From Candidatus Uhrbacteria bacterium CG10_big_fil_rev_8_21_14_0_10_50_16 (lineage in GTDB: Bacteria > Patescibacteriota > Patescibacteriia > UBA9934 > UBA11717): DNA of 64,000 bases. Positions 1-64,000 of this stretch are shown piece after piece. The DNA is taken from assembly GCA_002774875.1 (NCBI GenBank), contig PCYM01000002.1, positions 14,781-78,780 on the forward strand, read 5' to 3'. The notes beneath the pieces are model-generated. The model did not search any database and was not told the origin of the DNA. It worked only from the letters and a program-made list of their open reading frames with translations. The translations under genes and the position numbers were made by a program. The first letter of the stretch is position 1. Every line of letters starts with the position of its first letter.

Positions 1-234
1 TATCACCATGCCCTTACCGCAGCAGAAAATTCGGTCGTTTACAGCACACACGCGAGTGCCGTCGATAGTGCGCCTACGCAAAAACCTGTTACGTTATTTG
101 TTGGACCAGAAGGTGGATTTACCCAAGATGAAGTCGACTTTGCCGTGAGTCAAAACGCACAGATTGTCTCATTGGGAGCGTATCAGTTCCGTGCCGACAC
201 GGCGGCGCTGGTGGCACTTGCAAGAATTCAATAG
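1..234 (+). CDS. rsmE: 16S rRNA (uracil1498-N3)-methyltransferase RsmE-like, C-terminal fragment (5' end outside window)
   Basis: In-frame translation ...LFVGPEGGFTQDEVDFAVSQNAQIVSLGAYQFRADTAALVALARIQ* carries the GPEGGF...LG.RILR(T)ETAAL motif typical of RsmE C-termini; stop TAG at 232-234. Confidence 0.5.
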   Translation, partial: YHHALTAAENSVVYSTHASAVDSAPTQKPVTLFVGPEGGFTQDEVDFAVSQNAQIVSLGAYQFRADTAALVALARIQ

Positions 235-241
235 GTACCCC

Positions 242-278
242 AACACGCATTTCCCTATCGGCATGCGTGTTTTTTTAC
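242..278 (+). terminator. Rho-independent terminator (acacgcat...atgcgtgt stem + T7)
   Basis: Perfect 8-bp inverted repeat followed by TTTTTTT directly after rsmE stop. Confidence 0.6.
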
Positions 279-724
279 GTCACAGTTCGCTGGCCCACAG
301 ACTCAGCGCAAAAGATCAACAACTCGATTGATTGAAGCCTCATGGTCAAACACGTACGATCGTAGAGATTTGCACGTATGTGGATAAGGGTGCCTGTCCC
401 CTTTAGCCACACCAGTATCATCCAGCAATGTAGGAGCGAAGGGTTGTGTTTAGAAAAAGGGACAGTCGGATAGAGACGCACAAGACTTACTCCTGGCTAG
501 CTGTCTTCTGCGTGCAAGGGATTTAGCGAACGTCGTGATGAGGGTTTTGTATAAAAAGGGGCTCAGTTTATAAAACAGCTTGGCCCCGAGTTTTACGAGG
601 GTGTTTTATGAACTGCGTCAATGGGACGTCCGCAGGAGACGTTGAGTGTCCTTTTTATACAAAGCCCGAGGAACCCTTGACAAAACCCCCTTTTTAGGGT
701 AAACATCACACATAACTCTTAGAT

Positions 725-1993
725 ATGCTTATGCGATCCCATATCTCTTTCTTCGCCATTGTGGCGATTTTGTTCTCGTTTATACAGCCGATTGCCTCGG
801 CGTCGGCAACGTCCCTCGCTCCCATTACCCCATCGTGGAACACCAACGATGAACTTTGGATCGGCGCAAGTGCAACCTGGCAGTATCCAGGCTACTCCGT
901 AGCGCAGTATCAAACGGGCACCTTGATCAACTCAATGATCGATCAAATTCCCGCAGATCAATTTACGGACAGTCAGTTGACTTATGCGCGTACAGAAAGA
1001 CTCTCACATCCACTTGGGGGGAGCTCCCTACGCAATCAAGGATTCTTGCCTCTCACAGACACGTTTACCAATGTGTATCTCTATTCGTTTGTAGAGCATA
1101 AAATCGTTGCAACCGACTACAAGTTTCCAACGACTCGCTGGTGCGAATCTTGTTCAACGAGCCCAGGAGTCGGGACAAAATCCCTTGTTCAAATAAAGGA
1201 TGGGCAACTTCTTGTAACCGATGGTGATTTTAACTGGTATCTTTTGAATCCCTACACGTTACAAGCAACCGTTGTTGTAACAGCCGATACTCTTGAACAA
1301 AAAACGGGCGCACGATATGCATGGCTCCGTGTGATCAATAATCATATTGTCTCGGTTTCTGGTCCCGCATCAAACCTCGTAGCAGCCGGATTCGAGATCG
1401 TCTCTCCAACAGATGTCGTACGGACAAATCTCACTGGATCATTTAGCGAGCCATCCGTCTATTCTGTGTCGGATCAGTACGTCATTGTTACCGATCAGGC
1501 AAACGAAATGTTTACCGGTCAAATTGATGAAGGTGTCTATGTATCACAAGGAAGCACATTGACGAAAATTGGATTCACCGCGCGTGAACAAAATTCCAAT
1601 AACCCAGTGACCCTGCACGAACCACGCTTTATTTCTTCACAAGAGGTTGCTTGGATTGGAGCCGACAATAATCTGTACGTCGCCGATATTACTACGGCAC
1701 CCATGCAACACACGGGTGTTTTAGACACTCCTCGTGGTGTTCCGTTTCGTTCCATGTCCGATCCCAAGGTGTATTATCACGACGCACTTCCTGTGTATCC
1801 CTTTACACCACACGCTTACACATACGAATTTACAACCGAAGCGGATTACTTTGATGTCATGAATACGCAGAACTTTCAGGAGGTTCTCTATCTTCCCGAT
1901 ACTGCCGTGGATCACATTAAACTTCATTACGAGGTGTTAACGCAAGGACAACAGGTAGATATCCGAAGGACGATCTACGCAAACAAGCATTAA
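725..1993 (+). CDS. Secreted hypothetical protein (N-terminal signal peptide, 422 aa)
   Basis: ORF track; hydrophobic N-terminus ...AILFSFIQPIASASA; TTGACA-N17-TAAACA promoter at ~678-706; no recognisable domain. Confidence 0.55.
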   Translation: MLMRSHISFFAIVAILFSFIQPIASASATSLAPITPSWNTNDELWIGASATWQYPGYSVAQYQTGTLINSMIDQIPADQFTDSQLTYARTERLSHPLGGSSLRNQGFLPLTDTFTNVYLYSFVEHKIVATDYKFPTTRWCESCSTSPGVGTKSLVQIKDGQLLVTDGDFNWYLLNPYTLQATVVVTADTLEQKTGARYAWLRVINNHIVSVSGPASNLVAAGFEIVSPTDVVRTNLTGSFSEPSVYSVSDQYVIVTDQANEMFTGQIDEGVYVSQGSTLTKIGFTAREQNSNNPVTLHEPRFISSQEVAWIGADNNLYVADITTAPMQHTGVLDTPRGVPFRSMSDPKVYYHDALPVYPFTPHAYTYEFTTEADYFDVMNTQNFQEVLYLPDTAVDHIKLHYEVLTQGQQVDIRRTIYANKH

Positions 1994-2025
1994 AAAAACA
2001 GCCCTACGGGGCTGTTTTTGTTTCT
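1994..2025. terminator. Bidirectional rho-independent terminator (acagccc-tacg-gggctgt flanked by A/T runs)
   Basis: 7-bp stem with A-run upstream and T-run downstream between convergent genes. Confidence 0.6.
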
Positions 2026-2447
2026 AACACATGTGTGTCACCATCTTGTGATAGATAAAGGTCTAGGCCAGAAAGCGGTGTGTCGAGGCGCTCCGGCCAT
2101 TCGATCATCACGAGGTTTTTTGGATCGGCGAGTAATTCATCCAATCCAATCTGTCGCATTTCATTCGCATCAACGCGAGCTATTCGATACAAATCCACGT
2201 GAACGAGATTTGCGATCACCGCATGATTCACCTGGTGCACATTCACGAGCGTGTAGGTTGGACTCTTAACCGGACGCGTCACGCCAAGCGCCTTTGCTAC
2301 TCCTTGAACAAACGTGGTCTTTCCGGCGCCCAGATCTCCATGCAACAAAATCACGCGCGCAGCAATAAGTTGATCCACCATCTCTGCCGCGAGCACGTCC
2401 ATTTCTTCTACCTTGTGTGTTATGCACCTCATAGCTCCCATTTCCAT
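2004..2447 (-). CDS. tsaE: tRNA threonylcarbamoyladenosine biosynthesis protein TsaE (P-loop ATPase)
   Basis: Walker A GDLGAGKTT, ...LYLSQDGD... YjeE-like sequence; the 218-aa track ORF is trimmed to the Met at 2447; 3' overlap with tsaD. Confidence 0.7.
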   Translation of the reverse strand: MEMGAMRCITHKVEEMDVLAAEMVDQLIAARVILLHGDLGAGKTTFVQGVAKALGVTRPVKSPTYTLVNVHQVNHAVIANLVHVDLYRIARVDANEMRQIGLDELLADPKNLVMIEWPERLDTPLSGLDLYLSQDGDTHVLETKTAP

Positions 2448-3463
2448 TGTCCCCCCAAAATTTTTGCGGGGTCGGCGTCGATAATTAACGGATCCATGGC
2501 CACGCGTCCATCTACCAAAGCCCGCAAACCCGCCGCTCCAATCATCGCAGCGTTGTCCGTGGTGTATTTGATCTGCGGCACAAGCACGGAGACAGAAGTA
2601 TCGGAAAACGCTTCCATAAGTTGACGTCGCAACTCCGTGTTTGCCGATACACCTCCACACAGCATAACCGTGTTTGGTGCGTACTGTTCCGCGGCAAGCC
2701 GTGTTTTTGTCACCAGTACATCCACCACCGCCTGTTGAAACGAGGCGGCAATATCGGCAATAATCGTCGGTGTCAACTCTGCGTGTGATCGAATTTGATT
2801 ACGTACAGCCGTTTTGAGACCAGAAAATGATACATCCAAATCTCCCGAGTTGATCATGGGTCGTGGGAGCGTAATCGCCGTAGCGTCTCCGCCGAGCGCC
2901 GCCTTGGCAATACTTGGACCACCCGGATAGCTCAACCCAAGCTGTGCGGCCGTCTTATCAAAGGCCTCCCCCGCAGCATCATCTCGGGTTTGACCAAGAA
3001 AAACATACTCTCCATGGTCCTTCATGAGCACAATCTCCGTGTGCCCACCGGAGACCACGAGACAGAGAATCGGAAACGCGCTCGCCTCCACAGAGCTATC
3101 CAAAAAGTTTGCATAGATATGCCCTTCTATATGATCCACCGGGACAAGCGACACACCCCATGTGACCGCCAATGCTTTTGCCGTCTCCACGCCCACACGG
3201 AGTGCTGTTGCAAGCCCTGGTCCCGTAGTTACCGCCACCGCATCAAAATCCCCTTGCTTCCACTGCGTGAGCGCTTGGATCATTAACGGCAAAACAGGCA
3301 CATGCATACGTGCGGCAACCTCCGGCACCACGCCGCCATATTGTTGGTGCGTGGCGATCTGTGAGGAAACAAGATTCTCCACAACCACAAAAGATGTTCC
3401 GTCGCCCTCAACAATGGCGACGGCAGTTTCATCACAACTCGTTTCTATGGAGAGGATCTTCAT
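2429..3463 (-). CDS. tsaD: tRNA N6-adenosine threonylcarbamoyltransferase TsaD (Kae1/Gcp family)
   Basis: MKILSIETSCDETAVAIV... and His/Gly-rich metal-site motifs typical of TsaD; 344 aa. Confidence 0.85.
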   Translation of the reverse strand: MKILSIETSCDETAVAIVEGDGTSFVVVENLVSSQIATHQQYGGVVPEVAARMHVPVLPLMIQALTQWKQGDFDAVAVTTGPGLATALRVGVETAKALAVTWGVSLVPVDHIEGHIYANFLDSSVEASAFPILCLVVSGGHTEIVLMKDHGEYVFLGQTRDDAAGEAFDKTAAQLGLSYPGGPSIAKAALGGDATAITLPRPMINSGDLDVSFSGLKTAVRNQIRSHAELTPTIIADIAASFQQAVVDVLVTKTRLAAEQYAPNTVMLCGGVSANTELRRQLMEAFSDTSVSVLVPQIKYTTDNAAMIGAAGLRALVDGRVAMDPLIIDADPAKILGGQWKWEL

Positions 3464-3477
3464 GCGCCGTTTTTACC

Positions 3478-4464
3478 TTATCCTCGCCAAATTGTAAACC
3501 CAAGATACACAACATAGGCGATTGTAAACAAGGCGCCTTCCCATCGACTCAATTCGCCCGTCCGTTTTTGATTGATCATGAATGGAAACAGTATTGCTGT
3601 TGCCGCAAACGCCAAGAAGACATCAATCAGACCACCTGGGAAAACAGGAACCGGCAATATAATCGCCGTGACGCCCAAGATCCAAAGTGTGTTAAAGGTG
3701 ACCGACCCAACAATGTTCCCAATCGCCATGTCCGTTTGTCCACGGTATGCCGCCATCATGGTTGCAGCAATTTCAGGGAGGGACGTTCCGGCAGCAACGA
3801 TGGTAAGAGAAATAAATGCCTGGCTAAACCCAAGCGAGAGCGCCAAAGCACTTGCACTTTCTACGATCAATTCACCACCCAAAATCAATCCAACAAGTCC
3901 TCCAACAATCATGGCAATCGATACTCCCGTCCGTTGTTTTACAACAAAAATAAGATCCTTATCTTTTTTACTCTCACGCCTCTTAACCAACATAGGTTTA
4001 ATCGTGAAGTACAAAAATACAAAAAAGAATGCAATGAGTGCAATGCCTTCTCCACGCGAGAGAATATTTTCCGTTCCCGAGAGAGGACCATCCACCATCA
4101 GCGCAAACAACACACCAGCTCCCAAAATCGCAAACGGAATCTCACGCCAGACCGCAGAGCGTGCTACCACCAATGGTCGCACAAGTGCCGCAAGCCCCAA
4201 CCCCAGCAAAATATTTGCAAGGTTGGAGCCGATCACGTTTCCAAAGGCAATATCCGGATTGCCACCTGCGGCCGCGAACATATTAACTGCCAGCTCAGGA
4301 GCTGAGGAGCCAAAGGCAACAACCGTGAGTCCAATAAATAGGTTCGAGAAACCAAAACGCTTGGCAATCGACGATGCACCCTTTACCAGCTGATCTGCGC
4401 CCACAATGAGAGCAAAGAATCCTGCTAACAAAATAATGATTTGAAAAAACATGTATGAATACAC
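3478..4464 (-). CDS. Ca2+/cation antiporter, CaCA family (YrbG-like Na+/Ca2+ exchanger)
   Basis: Two alpha-repeat motifs (GSSAPELAV..., GTSLPEIAAT...) in a polytopic membrane protein, 328 aa. Confidence 0.75.
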   Translation of the reverse strand: MYSYMFFQIIILLAGFFALIVGADQLVKGASSIAKRFGFSNLFIGLTVVAFGSSAPELAVNMFAAAGGNPDIAFGNVIGSNLANILLGLGLAALVRPLVVARSAVWREIPFAILGAGVLFALMVDGPLSGTENILSRGEGIALIAFFFVFLYFTIKPMLVKRRESKKDKDLIFVVKQRTGVSIAMIVGGLVGLILGGELIVESASALALSLGFSQAFISLTIVAAGTSLPEIAATMMAAYRGQTDMAIGNIVGSVTFNTLWILGVTAIILPVPVFPGGLIDVFLAFAATAILFPFMINQKRTGELSRWEGALFTIAYVVYLGFTIWRG

Positions 4465-4600
4465 AAATAATAGTGATTCAAGTATAGCACCTCCCTCTTG
4501 ACAAAACGTCCACAGTGTCGTAGGTTATCCTCTCGCCTTGAGCGAGAAAAAACGGACACATCATCCTTAGAAATAAGGATCAACTGCGAGGAGGATCGAG

Positions 4601-6259
4601 ATGAACGTAGGACGGCTTTTGATGGCCTGTCTGCTGGTGGTGGCCATGAGCGCCTCCGCTTTCGGACAGGATTCGCTCACTCTGGTGCTCGTGGGTCAGC
4701 CGCGAGAGCCGCAGATGGTGCCCAAGGTCGTGAAGGCCTTTACCCGCGCAACGGGTGGTGGCGTGACGCCCACGTCCGCTGAGACCGCTCTGCCCAACCG
4801 GCAGGTGATGGAAGCTTGTGTGGACACGAACGCAGACTCCGTCTGTGAGAACATGGGCGTCAACACGCTCTACCGTCAGCCGGGCAACCTTCTGCTGGTG
4901 AGCGGTGCGGACCCCGAGTTTCACCCGTGCACGGATCGTGGATCCTACACCGCCATGGAGGCAGAGGACCAGTTCGTCGCCAACAGTCGTGGTGCGAGCA
5001 TCATCGATCAGATGGATGCACTCGCGTACGGAAAGGCTGCAACGGCGCTAATGACGCTCGGAGAGGTTAGCCTCCCTTGCCTCAACGAACGGTTGGAGGA
5101 AGAAACGTTCTGGCGGTATAACTTCGTGGCTGGGTATCTGGCCTACGAGACTGCCAACAACCACTCCGCCGGCATCGATGCCGCGCGGCCGTTCTTTCTG
5201 AACGCCCTCCACACATCTCCGGGTCACACCTGGGACGCCGACTACCCGCCGGCGGCACAGACCGCCTATGCCGAGGCCAAGGTGGCCCTGGTGAAGGAGG
5301 AAATAGGGGAGGTGAACCACGACGCCATGCGAGTGGTGACCCTCGGGGCGTTCGACGCTCTGACGGTAGACACCCAATCCTACGCCGAGGGGATGCACCT
5401 GCACCCCGGCCTGCACCTGCTCCAGTGGAAGTTCCAGGGTATGGAGTACACGCGTGTGTTCAGCGTCCCTGAGGGCGGCGTTGACCAGGTCCTTCTGCTC
5501 GTGGATGGCGCGAGCTGGGCGCAGGCCTTGCTCACCTTCCCCGAACAGCGCTCCCAGGCGCAACGTCTGGTGGTGGCCACAACTCTCAGCCTCATGACCC
5601 GCAACGGTCAGCGGTCGATGGGTGTCGTGGATCTTGCGCAGGACCCTCCACTGGGGCTTCTGTACAAAGCGGATGGCGAAGGCGTGCCACTCCCCGTGGA
5701 TCTGCCGACCTACACCGCCGCTGTAGAGGAGGGCGATGATGATGACGGTCCGGTCCGCCGGCCTCACGTGGAACCGTTCCAGACGGTGGACACCACGCCG
5801 GGTCAACTGGCGCTGGTGGCAGGCGGTGGGTTCAAGGGCTTCGGCCCGGCCACCTACGCCAGCGTCCACCTGGCGCTCGATGCCCACATCCGCAACGGCT
5901 TCGGCGTGGCCATTCAGGGCAACCTGGGGCTCACGTCCGTCTCCCTCCCGGATGGCACCAATGTCCTCGGAGACCTGGTCTCCCTAGGGCTGGGTGTGTG
6001 GTACCGGTTCTGGTCGCCGGTGGGGGTTCGCCCTCTCCTGCTACTAGATCTACTGCTGGACATCAACAGCTACGGCGTCAGTGCCCCCATCCCGCTCCCC
6101 TCCCTCACGGGCGGCGGCGGCGTGGAGGTGCTCCTGCCCGACTCCCGCTTCCGCGTCCGATTCGTCGGCTACGTGGGTGGTGGGTGGGATGGCACCACGA
6201 GTCGACCGCGCTACGGAGCCACGTCGGCTCTGGTGATGGAGCTGCGCCCGGCTCCCTAG
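4601..6259 (+). CDS. High-GC secreted hypothetical protein (552 aa, signal peptide, Cys-rich N-half, Gly-rich beta-like C-half)
   Basis: ORF track; GAGGAGG SD 7 nt upstream of ATG; GC ~65% with GC3 near saturation against ~48% flanks; shadow ORFs on other frames. Confidence 0.6.
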   Translation: MNVGRLLMACLLVVAMSASAFGQDSLTLVLVGQPREPQMVPKVVKAFTRATGGGVTPTSAETALPNRQVMEACVDTNADSVCENMGVNTLYRQPGNLLLVSGADPEFHPCTDRGSYTAMEAEDQFVANSRGASIIDQMDALAYGKAATALMTLGEVSLPCLNERLEEETFWRYNFVAGYLAYETANNHSAGIDAARPFFLNALHTSPGHTWDADYPPAAQTAYAEAKVALVKEEIGEVNHDAMRVVTLGAFDALTVDTQSYAEGMHLHPGLHLLQWKFQGMEYTRVFSVPEGGVDQVLLLVDGASWAQALLTFPEQRSQAQRLVVATTLSLMTRNGQRSMGVVDLAQDPPLGLLYKADGEGVPLPVDLPTYTAAVEEGDDDDGPVRRPHVEPFQTVDTTPGQLALVAGGGFKGFGPATYASVHLALDAHIRNGFGVAIQGNLGLTSVSLPDGTNVLGDLVSLGLGVWYRFWSPVGVRPLLLLDLLLDINSYGVSAPIPLPSLTGGGGVEVLLPDSRFRVRFVGYVGGGWDGTTSRPRYGATSALVMELRPAP

Positions 6260-6620
6260 GCTCTTGGAGCCCCTGACGACGCCCGTTCTGCATCCCCACC
6301 AATCTCGGTGGTCTGCAGAGCGGGTCGTTATTTTTTACACTATTCCTTGTTACGGGTTAACGGAACGCCCATTTTGGGCTAGTCTCCACGTGTTATCTAC
6401 AACCGAGCTGCCTATCTGCAGCTCAACACCCAGGATGAGTTCCTGTGTCACAGAATATTGTTCTGCCTGCTCTGCAAGCACAAGCTCATGCAGACGCGCG
6501 TCTTGATAAAGCTGGACACTATCCCGACACGTTCACCTGGATCGGCGACCCCGCTCCACCCCAGGATCTTCTTCGGAAGTCTCCCAGAGACGGTACTTAT
6601 TTTCACAAAATAAAAAACTC

Positions 6621-7874
6621 CTACCCGGCGGACATAATTTTATAAAACGTATCGCCTCTGCGAACGCGTGCGGTTACCTGCATCGTCATGTCCTCACCCT
6701 TATTGACCGTGGTGACATGCGTATCGTTGCACCAAATCTCTTCCGGCGTTTGACGCACAAACCCGGTCGTCTTTCCCACAAACACACAAGGCTCGCCCGC
6801 CGTAAATCCTTCTGCCTGCACGCGAATCTCGGCCACACCTAACTTGGGAAAGTAATTTAACACCGTTCCCACAAAGACCTTTTTTGTGGTGGCCTTACTA
6901 TCTGATCCTTGGCTCCAATATTTGTAGGCCAATCCACGATAAAATCCATCGCTTAATCCACGATTAAACACCGTTCCCAACCGCGTGTTCCACTGGCTGA
7001 TTTTTTCCTTTGTGCACGACCCATCGCCGATGGCCGCAAGTGCCTCCTTGTAACAGCGAATCACCACATCTACATATTCTGGCGGCTTTCCACGCCCTTC
7101 CACTTTCAAAGACACGGCACCAGACGCTACAATCTCATCAAGCATGCCAATGGTACACAAATCCTCCGTGCTCATAACAAACTCGTTGTCTACGTCTAAC
7201 TGTTTTCCTGTTGCTTTGTCCGTGACCGTGTACGCGCGACGGCAGGGCTGGCTACACGACCCACAATTAGCCGACGTGTTGTACATGTACAAGCTCATTC
7301 CGCATCTTCCACTCACCGCCACACACATGGCCCCGTGCACAAAAATCTCCACCTCCACCAACCGACCCTTTGGTCCGCGAATGTCCTGCGTTTTAATCAC
7401 GTCAACGATTGATTTGATCTGTTTAAGCGTGAGTTCGCGCGCAAGCACGACTCGGTCCGCCCACGTAGCAAAAAATTTTACGGCGTCGATGTTAGAAATG
7501 GAATGTTGTGTAGAAATATGAACCTCGACTCCTTGCGACTTTGCATAAGCGATTGTGGAGAGGTCAAACGCAATCACCGCGTCCACCTGTGCCAGCTTTA
7601 CCGCGTCTATCACCTGCTTCATCTCCTCCAAGTTTTGATCATACACAAGCGTGTTGAGCGCCAAATAGCATTTGACGTTGTATTGATGGCAAAGCGTGCT
7701 GATCTCCTGAATGTCTGCTAGGCCAAGGTGCGCAGAAGAGTTTGCGCGCATATTAAACCCATCCACACCAAAGTAGACCGCATCTGCCCCGGCGTTGATA
7801 GCGGCATGGAGCGCCTCGTAGGACCCTGCGGGTGCCAGGAGTTCGATGTGAGAAATGTCGGTAGGCGTTGCCAT
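6621..7874 (-). CDS. Peptidase U32 family protein (collagenase-like / RlhA-type)
   Basis: ELLAPAGSYEALHAAINAGADAVYFG... and C-x-C-rich central region typical of U32; start set to Met of MATPTDISHIELLAPAG. Confidence 0.75.
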   Translation of the reverse strand: MATPTDISHIELLAPAGSYEALHAAINAGADAVYFGVDGFNMRANSSAHLGLADIQEISTLCHQYNVKCYLALNTLVYDQNLEEMKQVIDAVKLAQVDAVIAFDLSTIAYAKSQGVEVHISTQHSISNIDAVKFFATWADRVVLARELTLKQIKSIVDVIKTQDIRGPKGRLVEVEIFVHGAMCVAVSGRCGMSLYMYNTSANCGSCSQPCRRAYTVTDKATGKQLDVDNEFVMSTEDLCTIGMLDEIVASGAVSLKVEGRGKPPEYVDVVIRCYKEALAAIGDGSCTKEKISQWNTRLGTVFNRGLSDGFYRGLAYKYWSQGSDSKATTKKVFVGTVLNYFPKLGVAEIRVQAEGFTAGEPCVFVGKTTGFVRQTPEEIWCNDTHVTTVNKGEDMTMQVTARVRRGDTFYKIMSAG

Positions 7875-8042
7875 AGAAGAGCTTGAGTTTACAAAAATCT
7901 GGGGGTTCTGGCAATGGTGGGTGGGCTGTATAAAGCAAGAACCGCCCACCGAGTAGACGCACCCCCTTCTTCACAAAACCAAGATCAGCTCGAAGACAAT
8001 GCCCATGCGATGGCAAGATCTATCTCTTTGTCCATACCTAAC

Positions 8043-8072
8043 TTGATAAAATACTAGAAAACACATACGATA
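8043..8072 (+). promoter_or_regulatory. Sigma70-like promoter TTGATA-N17-TACGAT, followed by a 10-bp perfect inverted repeat (8131-8172) in the leader
   Basis: Hexamers and spacing read directly; hairpin ctaccaaagc...gctttggtag. Confidence 0.4.
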
Positions 8073-8255
8073 TGCCTACAATATAGCCTAAACTGTTACG
8101 AAAGTCACAGCATGGCATAAAAATCTACCAAAGCACTGACCCCGTTGTCAGCGAGCTTTGGTAGGTCGTATGTCGAAAGGCATGCGTTGGGAGTAATCCC
8201 ACGAGCTGGCAGCGGGTTTTGTGCTGTCCGCTCGAATAAATCCTACCAAAGCGCT

Positions 8256-8651
8256 ATGACAACCTACAAACAAAATGGCTCCCACGATTGGTTGGGAGAT
8301 GCAGCGGAAAATTATGTCCGCTATTGTTTTGCACGCGAAGGCTACGAAGTCTTCGGGGCAGGTAAATAGGCGACAGACTGCGCCGTGCATGACAAGGAAA
8401 ACGACAAGTGGTATCGGGTAGAGGTGAAAAGCACAGATCGGCCAAAGCGACCTATACGACCAAGAATTTCAAACCTCGCCGGACGCGTAGACCTACTAGC
8501 AGAAGTAGTATTTTCTGATGACTCCGAACATCACAGTACGACCATGACGCTGACTTTGACGAAAATTAGTACAGAGGGACGAAGGGGTGAACGGTGTCCG
8601 ATCTGGGAAAACGGGGATGTGAAAGGGTTCCTTGCTGGACCTAACGGCTAA
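8256..8651 (+). pseudogene. YraN/UPF0102-like PD-(D/E)xK endonuclease interrupted by an in-frame amber (TAG at 8367-8369)
   Basis: Track ORFs 8145..8369 and 8385..8651 are in the same frame. The joined product MTTYKQNGSHDWLGDAAENYVRYCFAREGYEVFGAGK*ATDCAVHDKENDKWYRVEVKST... (~130 aa) has the spacing of the YraN pattern G..AE.A..YL...GY.........EIDLI...D...VFVEVK. Confidence 0.4.
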
Positions 8652-9618
8652 GCATTTGACCAATTGATCTAAGGTTCGAGCTCTTAATTATTTCGCCTAG
8701 ATTCCTTGTCTTTATTTCTTCGATGACCTTCGAATTTTCCTCGCGAGTTTTTAAGACTCTGTTAAGGAGTCTTTGGTTAGCGGTAACTACAAAACGACCC
8801 GCATGAAAGGCCACTCGTTTATTTACTTCTCTAACGATACGATGGTCTACGATCGCGACTGAAATGCCATCAAATTGATAACTCTTTTCCATTAGTAGAG
8901 TAGATCGTGGACCTATTGGTATGACGGTCTCTGTTATCGGACCGCAAGTAGTATAGCCAGTAGTTGTAACTAAAGGATTGTCACTACAAATAAACTGTCT
9001 CCCACTCGGCGCCACAAGTAATGTCCATCGTCGTTTGCTGTATTCACCCTTCATGAGTGGACCAATCATAGCCATTAATTTGAGATTATGATCATTACCT
9101 TCAACTTTCCATGTGATACCACTAGATGGATCAAGTGTATTCAATAACTCCTCTCGACTCGGTAATCCCTTGCCTGGATTCTCTGCTTTCCAGTCGATTT
9201 CAAACTCTCTAAATTTTTTCTTGTCACTCAATATGCTCAAAGCGCGATCGCGATGATCTTTTAGGGCGAGTTTATTCATCTGTTCATGACTGACAGGCGT
9301 GCGTACAGCCTGGAAACCAAAGTAATAGCAAAGGCTTTCACGTTCATCAGCCGATATATCCGAAACATCTAATGTTGCTAGCTTTGCGAGCGGTGCGGCT
9401 GCGGGACCCTCAATATCGTCTGCTAGCATTTCATCTATCGTAAAAGGAAGGTCCACAGGTGCATTCATCTCATAGTAATCTCTCTGGGCACAGATATTTC
9501 TTGGTGAGGTGATGAGTGATTTCTTCTCAGGGATCAAATAAGCAAATACCTGATCGTTTTCGTCAGCCCAGTGGCGAAGATGCATCTGCGCTACGACATG
9601 TTGATTTCTGGTCGGCAT
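8641..9618 (-). CDS. DUF4238-family protein (the family used by the single-gene anti-phage system Rst_DUF4238), 325 aa
   Basis: N-terminal QHVVAQMHLRHW resembles the DUF4238 H-Y-V-P-Q-F-Y-L-(K/R)-x-F motif; length is in the family range; located next to a tRNA; 3' end overlaps the YraN-like gene by 11 nt. Confidence 0.45.
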   Translation of the reverse strand: MPTRNQHVVAQMHLRHWADENDQVFAYLIPEKKSLITSPRNICAQRDYYEMNAPVDLPFTIDEMLADDIEGPAAAPLAKLATLDVSDISADERESLCYYFGFQAVRTPVSHEQMNKLALKDHRDRALSILSDKKKFREFEIDWKAENPGKGLPSREELLNTLDPSSGITWKVEGNDHNLKLMAMIGPLMKGEYSKRRWTLLVAPSGRQFICSDNPLVTTTGYTTCGPITETVIPIGPRSTLLMEKSYQFDGISVAIVDHRIVREVNKRVAFHAGRFVVTANQRLLNRVLKTREENSKVIEEIKTRNLGEIIKSSNLRSIGQMLSR

Positions 9619-9864
9619 GCTCTTAATCTTAGCACTTTTTTATCAAATCACTAACGCTCCTAACGACGAGGTTCAGATTTATTAGATATCTTCTCAACGC
9701 ATCGAGATGCCAGAGGACGCCAAAGACCCATTTATATTTATTAAAACCACGATGCAGCTTGTCATTACAGGGTAATGACCGCTGAAAGAGCGTCTGGCGT
9801 CGCTCTTTGGGTAGTGAGATTGTTTGTTGTATTAAAACCACACTTGAGCCCGTCCCTGCGGTAC

Positions 9865-9897
9865 AAAAAAGCCCCCAGATATACTGGTGGCTTTTTT
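9865..9897. terminator. Bidirectional terminator (gccccca-gatatac-tggtggc with A6/T6 flanks) immediately 3' of tRNA-Glu
   Basis: Stem-loop with one G.U, flanked by AAAAAA and TTTTTT. Confidence 0.6.
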
Positions 9898-9971
9898 GGT
9901 GACCCCACCGGGAATCGAACCCGGATTTCCAGGATGAAAACCTGACGTCCTAACCGCTAGACGATGGGGCC
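9897..9971 (-). tRNA. tRNA-Glu (anticodon UUC)
   Basis: Reverse complement GGCCCCATCGTCTAGCGGTTAGGACGTCAGGTTTTCATCCTGGAAATCCGGGTTCGATTCCCGGTGGGGTCACCA folds as a cloverleaf with anticodon loop TTTTCAT; CCA encoded. Confidence 0.85.
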
Positions 9972-24184: not shown

Positions 24185-25666
<1,482 letters not shown>

Positions 25667-28989: not shown

Positions 28990-29300
28990 ATAGGTAGTCC
29001 TTTTACAACAACAAAATCAATGACTCGAGAAGTAGTACTCTTATTACTCCCTGCAAAGCGAATCCGGGATGGTGGAAGCCGGATCATAGAATAAGAAGAA
29101 ATTGGACTCGATGAGATGACGCGTGCTTTTGTGCGTGTCCGGCATCCCCCGTAACCTTGGGATAATGTGTATCTACGGAGCACATGAAAGAGCCTTCTTT
29201 TTTTAGAAGGAATTGAGGTGGTACCGCGGTGGTGGAGAACCCCCGTCCTCAGACAACGTCTTGTTGTCTTTGGGCGGGGGTTTTTTGCCCCACGCAAGGA
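28990..29300 (+). promoter_or_regulatory. T-box riboswitch leader with intrinsic terminator
   Basis: Canonical T-box sequence AATTGAGGTGGTACCGCGGTG at ~29205-29225 (17/19 to AAUUAGGGUGGUACCGCGG); ~300-nt leader; terminator ccccc gtcc...gggcggggg + T6 at ~29242-29290 just before the SD of the downstream operon. Confidence 0.65.
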
Positions 29301-61797: not shown

Positions 61798-62185
61798 GGC
61801 CGTTCATTAAAACCTGTATAACATTAGATTGAAGGAGGAAGAGGAGCGTTGGAAACCGGCTAGATTCGTTTAGCATGGCGACAGTGTTCTTGAGTCATCT
61901 ATCGGTGAAACTGGGTCTCACTCACTCTCTCCGAACAGATGCCTCGCGAATGTAGATTACCTTGGTAAACCTACATTCATCCCCTTCAATCTGCTGTGAT
62001 ACAGCAGGCGTTTCCCGCTTCACCCCAGAAACCTGTCGTTTTTGGCGATTTTCTGTGTTGAGGTGGGAGAACGAGCGTTCTTTCCATATTTAGCCTGCAA
62101 CCCCGTGGTGGGGAAGTTGGCTTTTTTGATACGTCGCCGCGTGTACGGCACGTTTTGCGGCAATGCCGTGGAAGAGGAGAGGGAG

Positions 62186-64000
62186 ATGAGCAAGACCATG
62201 CCGATCCGCCTGCGCCTGGCGGACAACGAGGAGGTCAGCGAGGAGATGCCCACCGGGCTCTCGTTCGGGGACATCCGGACCCTCGGGTTGCTGGAGGTCG
62301 CCGAGATCGGAACGCGCCTCGCGCTCCCCTCGGGGATCGAGGTAGTCCGGACAGAGTCCGGCCTGGGGTTCATCACCAAGACCGCGCCCGTGAGCACGGC
62401 CGCCCCGGCTCCCAAGGCCGAGGTGGTCCAGACCGCGCGCCCGGCGGCCAAGGAGCCGAGGGTGACCGCCCAGGTGGCGGACATCTTCGGCGGATCCGTC
62501 GCCGTCCCCTCGGGGCGGCTGGCGGTGGACGCCTCCGTCCCCGTCCCGGCACCCAAGGCCGAGGTGGTCCAGACCGCGACCGCGCCCCCGGCGGCCAAGA
62601 TCGAGATCAAGACGGGCTCCGCCCAGGTGGCGGACATCGTCGAGGACGAGGCCCGCTTGGAACGGGAGAAGAAGGCCGCCGCACACGCGGCCAACCTCGC
62701 GGCCCGGGCCGCGATCATCCCCGGACTGGTCGTCGCCCTCGTGGCGCTGGCCAAGGAGTTCCTCAAGGAGGGCGGCCACATGGCCGGCATCTTCCTGGAG
62801 GAGGCCTACGTCAAGTCCGGCCCCTTTGCCACCCGCGTGGTGGCCGAGGGGATCGAGACCATCGAGAACTCGGTCGTCATGGACGGCCGCGCCATCCTGA
62901 ACGCCCTCCGGGCGCTCAACTCCAACCACCCCCTCCGGGGGATGGTGGACGCGATGGTCCTGCACGGCCCCCATGCCGTGCACTACGATCGGATCTTGAT
63001 CAACCGGAACCCCAAGGGGAAGGTCTGGATCCTCCCCTTGTGGGCGCCAGTGGCCTCGGCCGTCACCGACCGGCTCAGGAACGAGCTGGTGGGCGTCGCC
63101 CGCTACACGAAGCTCAAGAATGAGCTTCGCCGCCGCCTCTCGGGCGGCGCCGTGGTCAAGGGCGGGCGGAAGATCGCCCGCCACCCCAACGGGGGCGTGG
63201 ACTGGGACAGGCTCCACGACAAGTTCGAGGGAAAGGAATCCCTCGAGGGCCGCAAGGTGGCTTGGGGCCACATTGCCCTCATCGGCGACTGGGCCTTCTG
63301 CCTGGACGCCACCGACTACGACAAGACGACGGTGGTCGCCGTCGCCGCGGAGCTCACGGACGAGGGCCGCAAGGAAGAACAGGCCAAGGTGCTCCAGGAC
63401 ATCAACTGGGCCAACCGGTCCGTGAACGGGGTCAAGTTGATCCCCTTCAACACCCGGCAGACCCCCGAGGGGGCCTACCGGGTGGACCGGATCCTGAAGC
63501 AGGACGGCACCTGCCCGATCAGCGGGCAGGAGATCCCCCAGCAGAAGGGGGGCGCCTTCCACTTCCTGGTCTACGCCCCCCGTGGTGGGAGTGATCCCGC
63601 CCAACTGGTGGAGGAAATGGGCTACGTCCCCCTCCGCCCCTGGGTGGGCTACGCCCTCCTGGAGGACCTCTCCATCCTCCCCACCGACTGGGAAGTGTGG
63701 CAGAGGTGGGAGATCGTGACGCGGTTCTCCGCCACGGTCTCGTTCGTGGCGGACAAGAGCATCAAGCTCGAGCCCGCCTCACCTCGCAAGAGCAAGGGGA
63801 GCGTCTCCCTGAGCTCCCGCAAGCTCAAGGAGGAGCGCTCCGACGCCGATGCCAGGAAGGCGCTCGGCGGGGGCAAGAAGAAGAAGGGCGGGGGGTCCAA
63901 GAAGACCACCCGCCGGCTCCGAGCACGGACTCCAATGTCGGTCACCGACCGCCTGATCGAGTCCTGGGAGCACAAGTCGCCCGAGGAGTTCGGGATCATG
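62186..64000 (+). CDS. Large high-GC hypothetical protein (at least 605 aa; 3' end beyond window) with tandem ~45-aa PAPKAEVVQTA...AQVADI repeats and Lys/Gly-rich segment
   Basis: Frame-2 ORF translated by hand with no stop from ATG 62186 (GGAGAGGGAG SD) to 64000; absent from the track (no stop in window); track ORFs 62155..63123(+), 62090..63604(-) are its shadows. Confidence 0.6.
   Translation, partial: MSKTMPIRLRLADNEEVSEEMPTGLSFGDIRTLGLLEVAEIGTRLALPSGIEVVRTESGLGFITKTAPVSTAAPAPKAEVVQTARPAAKEPRVTAQVADIFGGSVAVPSGRLAVDASVPVPAPKAEVVQTATAPPAAKIEIKTGSAQVADIVEDEARLEREKKAAAHAANLAARAAIIPGLVVALVALAKEFLKEGGHMAGIFLEEAYVKSGPFATRVVAEGIETIENSVVMDGRAILNALRALNSNHPLRGMVDAMVLHGPHAVHYDRILINRNPKGKVWILPLWAPVASAVTDRLRNELVGVARYTKLKNELRRRLSGGAVVKGGRKIARHPNGGVDWDRLHDKFEGKESLEGRKVAWGHIALIGDWAFCLDATDYDKTTVVAVAAELTDEGRKEEQAKVLQDINWANRSVNGVKLIPFNTRQTPEGAYRVDRILKQDGTCPISGQEIPQQKGGAFHFLVYAPRGGSDPAQLVEEMGYVPLRPWVGYALLEDLSILPTDWEVWQRWEIVTRFSATVSFVADKSIKLEPASPRKSKGSVSLSSRKLKEERSDADARKALGGGKKKKGGGSKKTTRRLRARTPMSVTDRLIESWEHKSPEEFGIM

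What the first reader, a model, noticed from the sequence alone, without database searches (positions are those of the whole stretch)
8641..9971. tRNA-Glu-adjacent DUF4238-family gene: candidate single-gene anti-phage defence locus
A 325-aa protein starts with QHVVAQMHLRHW, reminiscent of the DUF4238 H-Y-V-P-Q-F-Y-L-x-x-F motif. Its length matches that family.

A single-gene anti-phage system has been described for this family (Rst_DUF4238). The gene lies immediately downstream of tRNA-Glu, a classic integration hotspot, and is flanked by a decaying PD-(D/E)xK nuclease gene.

This is the most defence-island-like spot in the host-GC part of the window.
Basis: partly seen in the sequence, partly recalled or inferred. 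Interest (0 to 1): 0.7.

Follow-up and report, generated by a model that had tools for sequence, protein, structure and literature searches.

The report
Swappable DUF4238 gene beside tRNA-Glu
An intact but divergent DUF4238-family gene, from a family with one proven anti-phage member, fills a swappable gene slot between tRNA-Glu and an RNA-led small nuclease gene in a Candidatus Uhrbacteria genome, making it a credible but untested phage-defence candidate.

Summary
The ORF at 8641-9618 (-) encodes a 325-aa protein that matches Pfam DUF4238 over its full length (117.8 bits) and keeps all near-invariant family residues. tRNA-Glu lies 278 nt upstream on the same strand. The neighbouring gene is a PD-(D/E)xK nuclease with a single nonsense mutation.

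The genome is a Candidatus Uhrbacteria (CPR) bacterium. The protein is only 22% identical to the validated E. coli Rst_DUF4238 and misses PADLOC's DUF4238 model, which 80 of 100 family representatives hit.

DNA comparison shows the gene sits in a variable slot. Three other contigs share the tRNA-Glu end, the spacer and the nuclease gene. Between those flanks they carry DUF4238, an unrelated 277-aa membrane protein, or only an 89-aa ORF. None of 29 loci from other Uhrbacteria (identified by their U32 peptidase gene) has the gene.

More distant homologues sit beside tRNA genes in islands with R-M, Vsr, Abi and integrase genes. The predicted fold (pLDDT 95) has no solved relative, so the mechanism stays unknown.

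An unexpected extra: the nuclease gene is preceded by a LOOT RNA (Rfam RF03000). This RNA recurs upstream of nuclease or R-M genes and carries a switch-like alternative pairing.

Verdict: a new member of a known kind, and a plausible defence gene.

The parts
9897..9971 (-). tRNA-Glu (anticodon UUC); conserved outer flank of the slot
   Evidence: ARAGORN; Rfam tRNA 62.5 bits. The 3' part is shared with the contig ends of L022, L030 and L033.
9864..9898 (-). Hairpin followed by a T-run directly after the tRNA (probable tRNA terminator)
   Evidence: Inverted repeat I6, 15-nt arms, 93% complementary. The stem is kept through different sequences in L022 and L030 in alignment A6.
9619..9863 (-). Conserved spacer between the tRNA and the DUF4238 start. 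It holds two copies of GTGGTTTTAATA(C/A), at 9829-9841 and 9738-9750. Its role is unknown (promoter, operator or recombination site).
   Evidence: 68-84% nt identity to L022, L030 and L033. The motif is invariant in A6. Only these two close matches occur in the 64-kb window; the motif occurs 2x in L022 and L030 and 1x in L033. The 70-aa ORF here (9629-9841) has no homologue or family hit.
8641..9618 (-). Intact 325-aa DUF4238-family gene: the variable cargo of the slot and the candidate anti-phage gene
   Evidence: Pfam PF14022 117.8 bits. Family-invariant H7, E70, R106, P108, W198, F209, S212-D213-x-P215, P234 and N266 are kept. AF2 pLDDT 95, pTM 0.91. 43.0% GC.
8256..8651 (+). Hjc/DUF4365-like minimal PD-(D/E)xK nuclease gene, inactivated by TGG->TAG at 8367-8369. 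It is convergent with DUF4238 and overlaps it by 11 nt. It forms the conserved inner flank of the slot.
8085..8202 (+). LOOT RNA (Rfam RF03000), 54 nt upstream of the nuclease start on the same strand
   Evidence: 78.1 bits against a gathering score of 46.4, full model 1-121. The same arrangement occurs in L029, L025, L033 and L082.
8238..8263 (+). Copy of the 5' strand of LOOT's long hairpin, spanning the nuclease ATG (8256-8258). It can pair with the hairpin's 3' strand (8144-8165) instead.
   Evidence: Direct repeat D7 and inverted repeat I1. Duplex dG -29.3 kcal/mol, reached by 0 of 500 shuffles; the MFE fold of LOOT plus the leader and the first codons of the nuclease gene uses this pairing. 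Equivalent mimics with other sequences occur in L033, L001 and L082.

Best explanation
The 325-aa gene is an intact, divergent member of the DUF4238 family. It was acquired horizontally as the cargo of a small variable slot in a Candidatus Uhrbacteria (CPR) chromosome.

The slot is bounded on one side by tRNA-Glu and a conserved spacer of about 250 nt. On the other side it is bounded by the 3' end of a LOOT-RNA-led, Hjc-like PD-(D/E)xK nuclease gene, which here carries a nonsense mutation.

The gene most likely acts alone as an anti-phage protein, as its distant relative Rst_DUF4238 does in E. coli against T7.

The biochemical step is inferred, not shown. The invariant polar residues (H7, E/D62, E70, R106, S212-D213, N266) lie on the conserved N-terminal strand/helix and the C-terminal sheet, and would form a catalytic or ligand-binding site. 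The poorly conserved helical segment (about residues 109-196) would give specificity for a phage cue. The outcome would be blocked phage replication or abortive infection.
For: **Shown: family and integrity**
- Full-length Pfam match.
- All near-invariant family columns retained.
- Confident single-domain model.
- Conservation is concentrated in residues 1-20 and 197-216, and lowest in 109-196 and the C-terminal tail.

**Shown: the slot is variable**
- L022 has tRNA-Glu, spacer, DUF4238 (50% identity) and nuclease (71%).
- L033 has the same flanks (82-84% nt identity) but a 277-aa single-TM protein in the slot.
- L030 has the same flanks with only an 89-aa RNA_pol_A_CTD-like ORF.
- The gene is absent from 29 loci of other Uhrbacteria, found through their U32 peptidase gene at 48-75% identity.
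- GC is 43% against 51-58% in the flanks.

**Shown: contexts of homologues**
- P0006 (39% identity) lies in a 5-kb island bounded by a perfect 64-nt repeat of the tRNA-Thr 3' end, together with DUF4145, a methylase, RE_HpaII and Vsr.
- P0002 (48%) starts 57 nt after tRNA-His, in an island with Abi_C and a serine recombinase.
- Nuclease homologues are followed by Ppl-like, AbiV, MTase/NsnA-GmrSD and SIR2-like genes, next to a serine integrase.

**Shown: family precedent**
- The E. coli TA007 single-gene DUF4238 system protects against T7 (PMC9122126).
- It aligns to the window protein over about 300 aa.
Against: - PADLOC's DUF4238-Pers model does not detect the window protein even at E<=10. It detects 80 of 100 family representatives, but the three closest relatives only weakly (21-29 bits, partial).
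- Identity to the validated protein is 22%.
- Three moderately conserved N-terminal motif positions are substituted (P10A, Y13H, F17W).
- There is no att repeat or integrase in the window.
- No empty site was found in a close relative.
- No tblastn match in 50,697 phage records, and only one structural match among viral proteins.
- Expression in the native host is unknown.
Confidence: 0.6

Rival explanations
1. It is a two-gene system. The Hjc-like nuclease (with its LOOT leader) and DUF4238 work together, and the nonsense mutation in the nuclease means the locus is now a dead system.
For: The same convergent, abutting pair occurs in L022 in a different outer context (AI-2E transporter instead of U32), with 50% and 71% identity.
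Against: - DUF4238 subclade members in L001, L032 and L023 have no nuclease neighbour.
- Six of eight nuclease contexts have no DUF4238.
- L033 and L030 keep the nuclease with other slot contents.
- The validated E. coli system is a single gene.
- DUF4238 stays intact here while the nuclease is broken.
Confidence: 0.1
2. It is non-defence cargo. On this view the DUF4238 gene serves the mobile DNA itself (an addiction or toxin-like function, exclusion of competing elements, or a recombination accessory) or some unrelated host function.
For: - The family has no known biochemistry.
- The L022 neighbourhood is transporters and a metal ATPase.
- The other slot occupants (277-aa TM protein, 89-aa alpha-CTD-like ORF) match no PADLOC model or have no defence annotation.
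Against: - The one tested family member is anti-phage.
- The informative homologue contexts are rich in R-M, Abi and Vsr genes.
- 80% of sampled family representatives match the defence model.
Confidence: 0.2
3. It is a functionless relic. The whole 1.8-kb block is a decaying remnant of an integrative element, and the DUF4238 ORF is intact only because too little time has passed.
For: The adjacent nuclease is already a pseudogene. There is no integrase or att repeat.
Against: - The 978-nt ORF has no disruption.
- Every near-invariant residue is kept at 46-50% identity to its relatives, which implies long purifying selection in the lineage.
- The LOOT RNA still scores 78 bits.
- The nuclease has only one lesion, so decay is recent.
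Confidence: 0.07
4. It is a core housekeeping gene of Uhrbacteria that merely resembles DUF4238.
For: None beyond its chromosomal location among housekeeping genes.
Against: - Absent from 29 loci of other Uhrbacteria identified through their U32 peptidase gene.
- Only 3 proteins at E<=1e-30 among 1.84 billion representatives.
- Replaced by other genes between the same flanks.
- Low GC.
Confidence: 0.02

Closest known systems
Rst_DUF4238 (single-gene anti-phage system from the E. coli TA007 P2-prophage hotspot; Rousset et al. 2022, PMC9122126)
   Same: - Same Pfam family (PF14022; 136.7 bits for E. coli against 117.8 bits here).
- Similar length (309 against 325 aa).
- Alignable end to end.
- Same invariant residues, including H7, R106, W198, SDNP and N266.
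- Carried as exchangeable cargo in a hotspot of mobile DNA.
   Different: - 22% identity.
- Not detected by PADLOC's DUF4238-Pers model.
- The host is a CPR bacterium, not a proteobacterial prophage.
- The hotspot is flanked by tRNA-Glu and a LOOT-led nuclease gene rather than by P2 genes.
- Activity is untested.
tRNA-adjacent genomic or defence islands, and the variable hotspots of P2/P4-like elements
   Same: - Lies directly 3' of a tRNA gene.
- Low GC.
- Alternative cargo genes between conserved flanks.
- Relatives sit in a repeat-bounded tRNA-Thr island and a tRNA-His island.
   Different: - The window has no integrase and no direct repeat.
- The slot holds a single gene (about 1 kb).
- The inner flank is a small nuclease gene with a structured RNA leader.
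Hjc-type Holliday-junction resolvases, the I-Ssp6803I homing endonuclease, and DUF4365/Mrr-like minimal PD-(D/E)xK nucleases (relevant to the flanking gene)
   Same: - Alpha-beta-beta-beta-alpha-beta core.
- D...E-x-K motif.
- About 125 aa.
- The LOOT-associated nuclease in L082 scores 24.0 bits to DUF4365 (cut-off 24.3) and aligns to this family by hhalign (E 1e-4).
   Different: - No Pfam, NCBIfam or PDB sequence match.
- Its own invariant HDWLGDAAE...GKW motif.
- The substrate is unknown.
- It is a pseudogene in this window.
LOOT RNA motif (Rfam RF03000, typed 'Gene; sRNA')
   Same: Full-length match above the gathering score, with all helices.
   Different: Rfam types it as a trans-acting sRNA candidate, and the papers found give no function. 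Here it sits as a 5' leader. It lies upstream of small PD-(D/E)xK nuclease genes in 5 loci, a BsaXI-like R-M enzyme in 1 locus, and Zn-ribbon or TM proteins in 2 loci. In 4 of the 6 loci tested, an extra alternative pairing covers the start region.

Membership tests
Pfam DUF4238 (PF14022) | Score above the curated gathering threshold, with near-complete profile coverage | tested here: met
   117.8 bits against 27; profile positions 1-279 of 281.
Pfam DUF4238 (PF14022) | Near-invariant residues of the family (H7, L14, E/D62, E70, R106, P108, W198, F209, D213, P215, P234, N266) | tested here: met
   All are present. E62 is D, and F17 is W.
Rst_DUF4238 defence system, as defined by the PADLOC/DefenseFinder-type model | Hit to the system-specific HMM (PDLC03000, DUF4238-Pers) | tested here: not met
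   - No hit at E<=10.
- The positive control (E. coli TA007 protein) scores 718.2 bits.
- 80 of 100 family representatives hit.
- P0002-P0004 hit weakly (21-29 bits, model positions about 1-220 of 309).
Rst_DUF4238 defence system | Single-gene architecture (no obligate partner gene) | tested here: met
   The nuclease neighbour is present in 2 of 5 informative subclade contexts (a sixth contig, L024, is too short to tell) and is a pseudogene here. Other neighbours differ.
Rst_DUF4238 defence system | Carried in a variable hotspot of mobile DNA | tested here: met
   Identical flanks hold three different contents. Relatives sit in tRNA-linked islands.
Rst_DUF4238 defence system | Protection against phage infection | not testable with these tools
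   Needs cloning and a phage challenge. The only experimental precedent is E. coli against T7.
tRNA-integrated genomic island | Direct repeat of the tRNA 3' end at the distal boundary | tested here: not met
   Only chance matches of 9 nt or less in 6000-9849. In contrast, L023 has a perfect 64-nt repeat.
tRNA-integrated genomic island | Integrase or recombinase gene within the island | tested here: not met
   The window neighbours are U32 peptidase, Ser/Thr kinase, GGDEF, TsaD/E and similar. Integrases occur only in the distant loci L001, L025, L029 and L082.
tRNA-integrated genomic island | Variable presence among relatives, and deviating base composition | tested here: met
   GC 43% against 51-58%.
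PD-(D/E)xK nuclease superfamily (flanking gene) | Catalytic D...(D/E)-x-K motif on the alpha-beta-beta-beta-alpha-beta core | tested here: met
PD-(D/E)xK nuclease superfamily (flanking gene) | Uninterrupted reading frame | tested here: not met
   TAG at 8367-8369 replaces the invariant W38, in all five assemblies.
LOOT RNA (RF03000) | Covariance-model score at or above Rfam's gathering score | tested here: met
   78.1 bits against 46.4; model positions 1-121 of 121.

The most novel reading that the evidence does not exclude
The tRNA-Glu / LOOT-nuclease pair marks a previously undescribed kind of gene-exchange slot in CPR bacteria and their mobile elements. On this reading, the orphan LOOT RNA is a cis-acting switch, not a trans sRNA. 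It would control translation of small PD-(D/E)xK nucleases or R-M enzymes. The nuclease would be either a stand-alone RNA-gated defence effector or the enzyme that drives cargo exchange at its own 3' end. DUF4238 would then be one of several interchangeable immune cargos.
Probability: 0.2. Interest if true: 0.75.

Novelty: new member of a known kind. Interest (0 to 1): 0.5.

Why it matters
- **CPR bacteria and phage defence.** CPR/Patescibacteria have small genomes. To my knowledge (not checked here) they are reported to carry few recognised defence systems. This protein falls outside PADLOC's DUF4238 model, yet it sits in a demonstrably swappable slot. Standard annotation may therefore under-count immunity genes in these lineages.
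- **A useful second member.** A divergent, compact DUF4238 protein with a confident model gives a second, distant sequence for working out what this family does. Its fold has no solved relative.
- **A testable role for an orphan RNA.** The flank links the LOOT RNA motif to nuclease and R-M genes, which suggests a testable regulatory role for it.

Tried and rejected
- **att repeats in the window.** The repeat finder and a word-7 blastn of the tRNA region against 6000-9849 found only chance matches of 9 nt or less.
- **Empty site in close relatives.** Genome and metagenome scans with the U32 peptidase found nothing closer than 75% identity. Synteny is poor. Only L008 keeps tRNA-Glu upstream of U32, with unrelated content between them.
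- **Other libraries.** NCBIfam and PHROGs gave nothing for DUF4238.
- **AlphaFold-database fold search.** The library was unavailable.
- **Phage records.** tblastn gave no match. The nuclease family is absent from IMG/VR.
- **ORF 9629-9841 (70 aa) between the tRNA and the gene.** No homologues or family hits, so I treat it as non-coding spacer.
- **Nuclease as obligate partner.** Rejected on co-occurrence.
- **Loose LOOT pattern scan.** It was filtered with nhmmer and Rfam, and then a stricter pattern was used.
- **Clustering of invariant residues in 3D.** Could not be tested, because model coordinates are not exposed.

Full report
**Observation**

The minus-strand ORF 8641-9618 encodes 325 aa starting MPTRNQHVVAQMHLRHW. 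It matches Pfam DUF4238 (PF14022) at 117.8 bits, E 7.8e-34, over essentially the whole profile. ARAGORN and Rfam place tRNA-Glu(UUC) at 9897-9971 on the same strand.

On the other side, 8256-8651 (+) is a single reading frame broken by one TAG at 8367-8369. The exact DUF4238 protein is on record as a hypothetical protein of a Candidatus Uhrbacteria bacterium from the CG10_big_fil_rev series, a CPR/Patescibacteria genome. The same locus, including the TAG, appears in five independent assemblies.

**Family membership**

A phmmer scan of 1.84 billion representatives found 556 relatives at E<=1e-3, but only 3 at E<=1e-30. The protein therefore belongs to a small, divergent branch.

In an alignment of 137 near-full-length relatives plus the validated E. 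coli protein, the near-invariant positions are H7, L14, F17, E62, E70, R106, P108, W198, F209, S212-D213-x-P215, P234 and N266. The window protein keeps all of them, with D at 62 and W at 17. Conservation is highest in residues 1-20 and 197-216. It is lowest in 109-196 and in the C-terminal tail.

**Relation to the known defence system**

I recovered the sequence of the only experimentally tested member from Rousset et al. 2022, Table S2A. This is the E. coli TA007 P2-hotspot gene, which gives strong resistance to T7.
- It hits PADLOC model PDLC03000 (DUF4238-Pers) at 718 bits.
- The window protein gives no hit even at E<=10.
- The model is not narrow: 80 of 100 family representatives hit it.
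- The three closest relatives of the window protein hit only weakly and partially; P0005, P0006 and P0009 do not hit.
- Pairwise, the window and E. coli proteins are 22% identical over about 300 aa (E 8e-13).

The protein is therefore a DUF4238 family member that standard defence annotation would miss.

**Structure and mechanism**

AlphaFold2 with a 100-sequence alignment gives a confident model (pLDDT 95.0, pTM 0.91). It has N-terminal strands and a helix, a long helical segment (61-194), a C-terminal sheet and terminal helices.
- Sequence and profile searches of the PDB find nothing.
- Among viral models, the only match is an uncharacterised protein of Stenotrophomonas phage Smp131 (E 4.7e-11).
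- The literature states that the function of the domain is unknown and unclassifiable.

The mechanism I give (an enzyme-like conserved core plus a variable helical sensor) is therefore inference from the conservation pattern only.

**Genomic context: the decisive result**

Scans with the neighbouring U32 peptidase retrieved 29 loci from other Uhrbacteria (48-75% identity). None has a DUF4238 gene or the nuclease. Only L008 keeps tRNA-Glu upstream of U32, with unrelated content in between.

The nuclease fragment turned out to belong to a family of about 125-aa proteins with no Pfam domain. DNA comparison of the window with the contigs that encode them and a flank alignment show the following.
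- L022, L033 and L030 all end inside the same tRNA-Glu. They share the terminator hairpin and a spacer with the motif GTGGTTTTAATAC, and they carry the nuclease gene.
- Between those flanks lie DUF4238 (window, and L022 at 50% identity), an unrelated 277-aa single-TM protein (L033), or only an 89-aa RNA_pol_A_CTD-like ORF (L030).
- Relative to L030, the difference in the window is almost exactly the DUF4238 CDS.
- Beyond the nuclease, the outer neighbours differ: U32, an AI-2E transporter, or an RF-1-like gene.

This is direct evidence that the gene is exchangeable cargo in a hotspot. No att repeat or integrase is present in the window.

**Contexts of more distant homologues**

- **P0006 (39% identity).** It lies in a 5-kb block of DUF4145, DNA methylase, RE_HpaII, Vsr and DUF4238. 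The block is bounded by a perfect 64-nt direct repeat of the tRNA-Thr 3' end.
- **P0002 (48% identity).** It starts 57 nt after tRNA-His, in a block that ends with Abi_C, a PDDEXK-like protein, an HTH excisionase-like gene and a serine recombinase.
- **Nuclease homologues in L025, L028 and L029.** They are followed by an MTase_II plus NsnA/GmrSD-like and SIR2-like genes, by a Ppl-like ATPase, or by Abi_C plus AbiV. L025 and L029 share an upstream large serine integrase (phrog_95, E 1e-66) but differ completely downstream.

These associations support a defence role for the slot contents.

**The flanking nuclease**

**Unexpected: a LOOT RNA**

Rfam finds a full-length LOOT RNA (RF03000; 78.1 bits, gathering 46.4) at 8085-8202 (+), 54 nt upstream of the nuclease start.
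- LOOT also precedes the nuclease homologues in L029, L025 and L033, and a Zn-ribbon protein in the L001 island.
- In IMG/VR contigs it precedes a DUF4365/Mrr-like small nuclease next to a serine recombinase (L082), a BsaXI-like R-M enzyme with an HsdS-like partner (L171), and TM/Zn-ribbon proteins after an MTase cluster (L172).
- It is not detectable in L022, L028, L030 or L031.
- In the window, L033, L001 and L082, the start-codon region repeats the 5' strand of LOOT's long hairpin. The repeated sequences are CUACCAAAGC in the window and L033, CCCACGCUAAU in L001, and CCUACGCGAA in L082. The hairpin's 3' strand can therefore pair with the translation start instead (dG -29.3, -26.7, -20.1 and -20.2 kcal/mol; no shuffle reaches these values). 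L029 and L025 lack this feature.
- The papers found give no function for LOOT.

This suggests a cis-acting switch. It is a lead, not a conclusion.

**Verdict**

The gene is a divergent new member of a known family, placed in a demonstrably variable slot.

The defence function (confidence about 0.6) rests on family precedent and guilt by association. It is tempered by the failed PADLOC model and the unknown biochemistry. The most novel element is not the gene but its flank: the LOOT-led nuclease.

Noticed in passing
window 8085-8202 (+); also L029 4365-4483, L025 4360-4479, L033 1-98, L001 14095-14226, L082 1287-1423 (-), L171 7852-7981 (-), L172 4386-4511: LOOT RNA (Rfam RF03000, no known function) sits as a 5' leader. 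It precedes small PD-(D/E)xK nuclease genes (5 loci), a BsaXI-like R-M enzyme (1 locus) or Zn-ribbon/TM proteins (2 loci), always in island or integrase contexts.
   Followed up: partly
window 8144-8165 vs 8238-8263; equivalents in L033, L001, L082: The region around the start codon duplicates the 5' strand of LOOT's long hairpin, using three different sequences across loci. This allows an alternative pairing that would occlude the translation start (dG -20 to -29 kcal/mol, never reached by shuffles). It is absent in L029 and L025, and was not examined in L171 or L172.
   Followed up: partly
window 9829-9841 and 9738-9750 (-); L022 114-123 and 205-214; L030 1884-1893 and 1975-1984; L033 1478-1487: The motif GTGGTTTTAATA(C/A) is repeated twice in the spacer after tRNA-Glu and is conserved across the related contigs. 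L033 diverges immediately after the first copy, so the motif may mark a recombination boundary, a promoter or an operator.
   Followed up: partly
L023 6152-6215 and 11138-11201: A perfect 64-nt direct repeat of the tRNA-Thr 3' end bounds a 5-kb island made only of defence-type genes (DUF4145, methylase, RE_HpaII, Vsr, DUF4238). No integrase lies inside it.
   Followed up: partly
L025 vs L029 (about 1-4900 conserved, then divergent): Two contigs share a serine integrase (59% identity), a 470-aa protein (57%), a small ORF, LOOT and the nuclease. They then carry entirely different cargo: MTase/NsnA-GmrSD/SIR2-like against a 312-aa protein, an 865-aa unknown, Abi_C and AbiV. This looks like a second, integrase-linked hotspot with the same LOOT-nuclease border.
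   Followed up: partly
window 24185-25665 (+) and 29011-29253 (+): A 16S rRNA gene (1442 bits) lies near tRNA-Phe, tRNA-Ile and tRNA-Pro genes at 26.5-28.4 kb (the first two on the opposite strand), with no 23S match at gathering threshold anywhere in the window. A T-box leader sits at 29.0 kb.
   Followed up: no
window 62001-64000 and 4601-6259: Sharp GC rises: 0.67-0.68 in the last 2 kb, and 0.648 for the 552-aa hypothetical gene at 4601-6259, against a window mean of 0.508. The cause was not examined.
   Followed up: no
L008 4412-4513 (+): In the closest GTDB Uhrbacteria species, a second, 102-nt tRNA-like match (38 bits) lies 120 nt after tRNA-Glu. It could be an intron-containing or degenerate tRNA copy. 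A GIY-YIG ORF abuts the tRNA on the other side.
   Followed up: no
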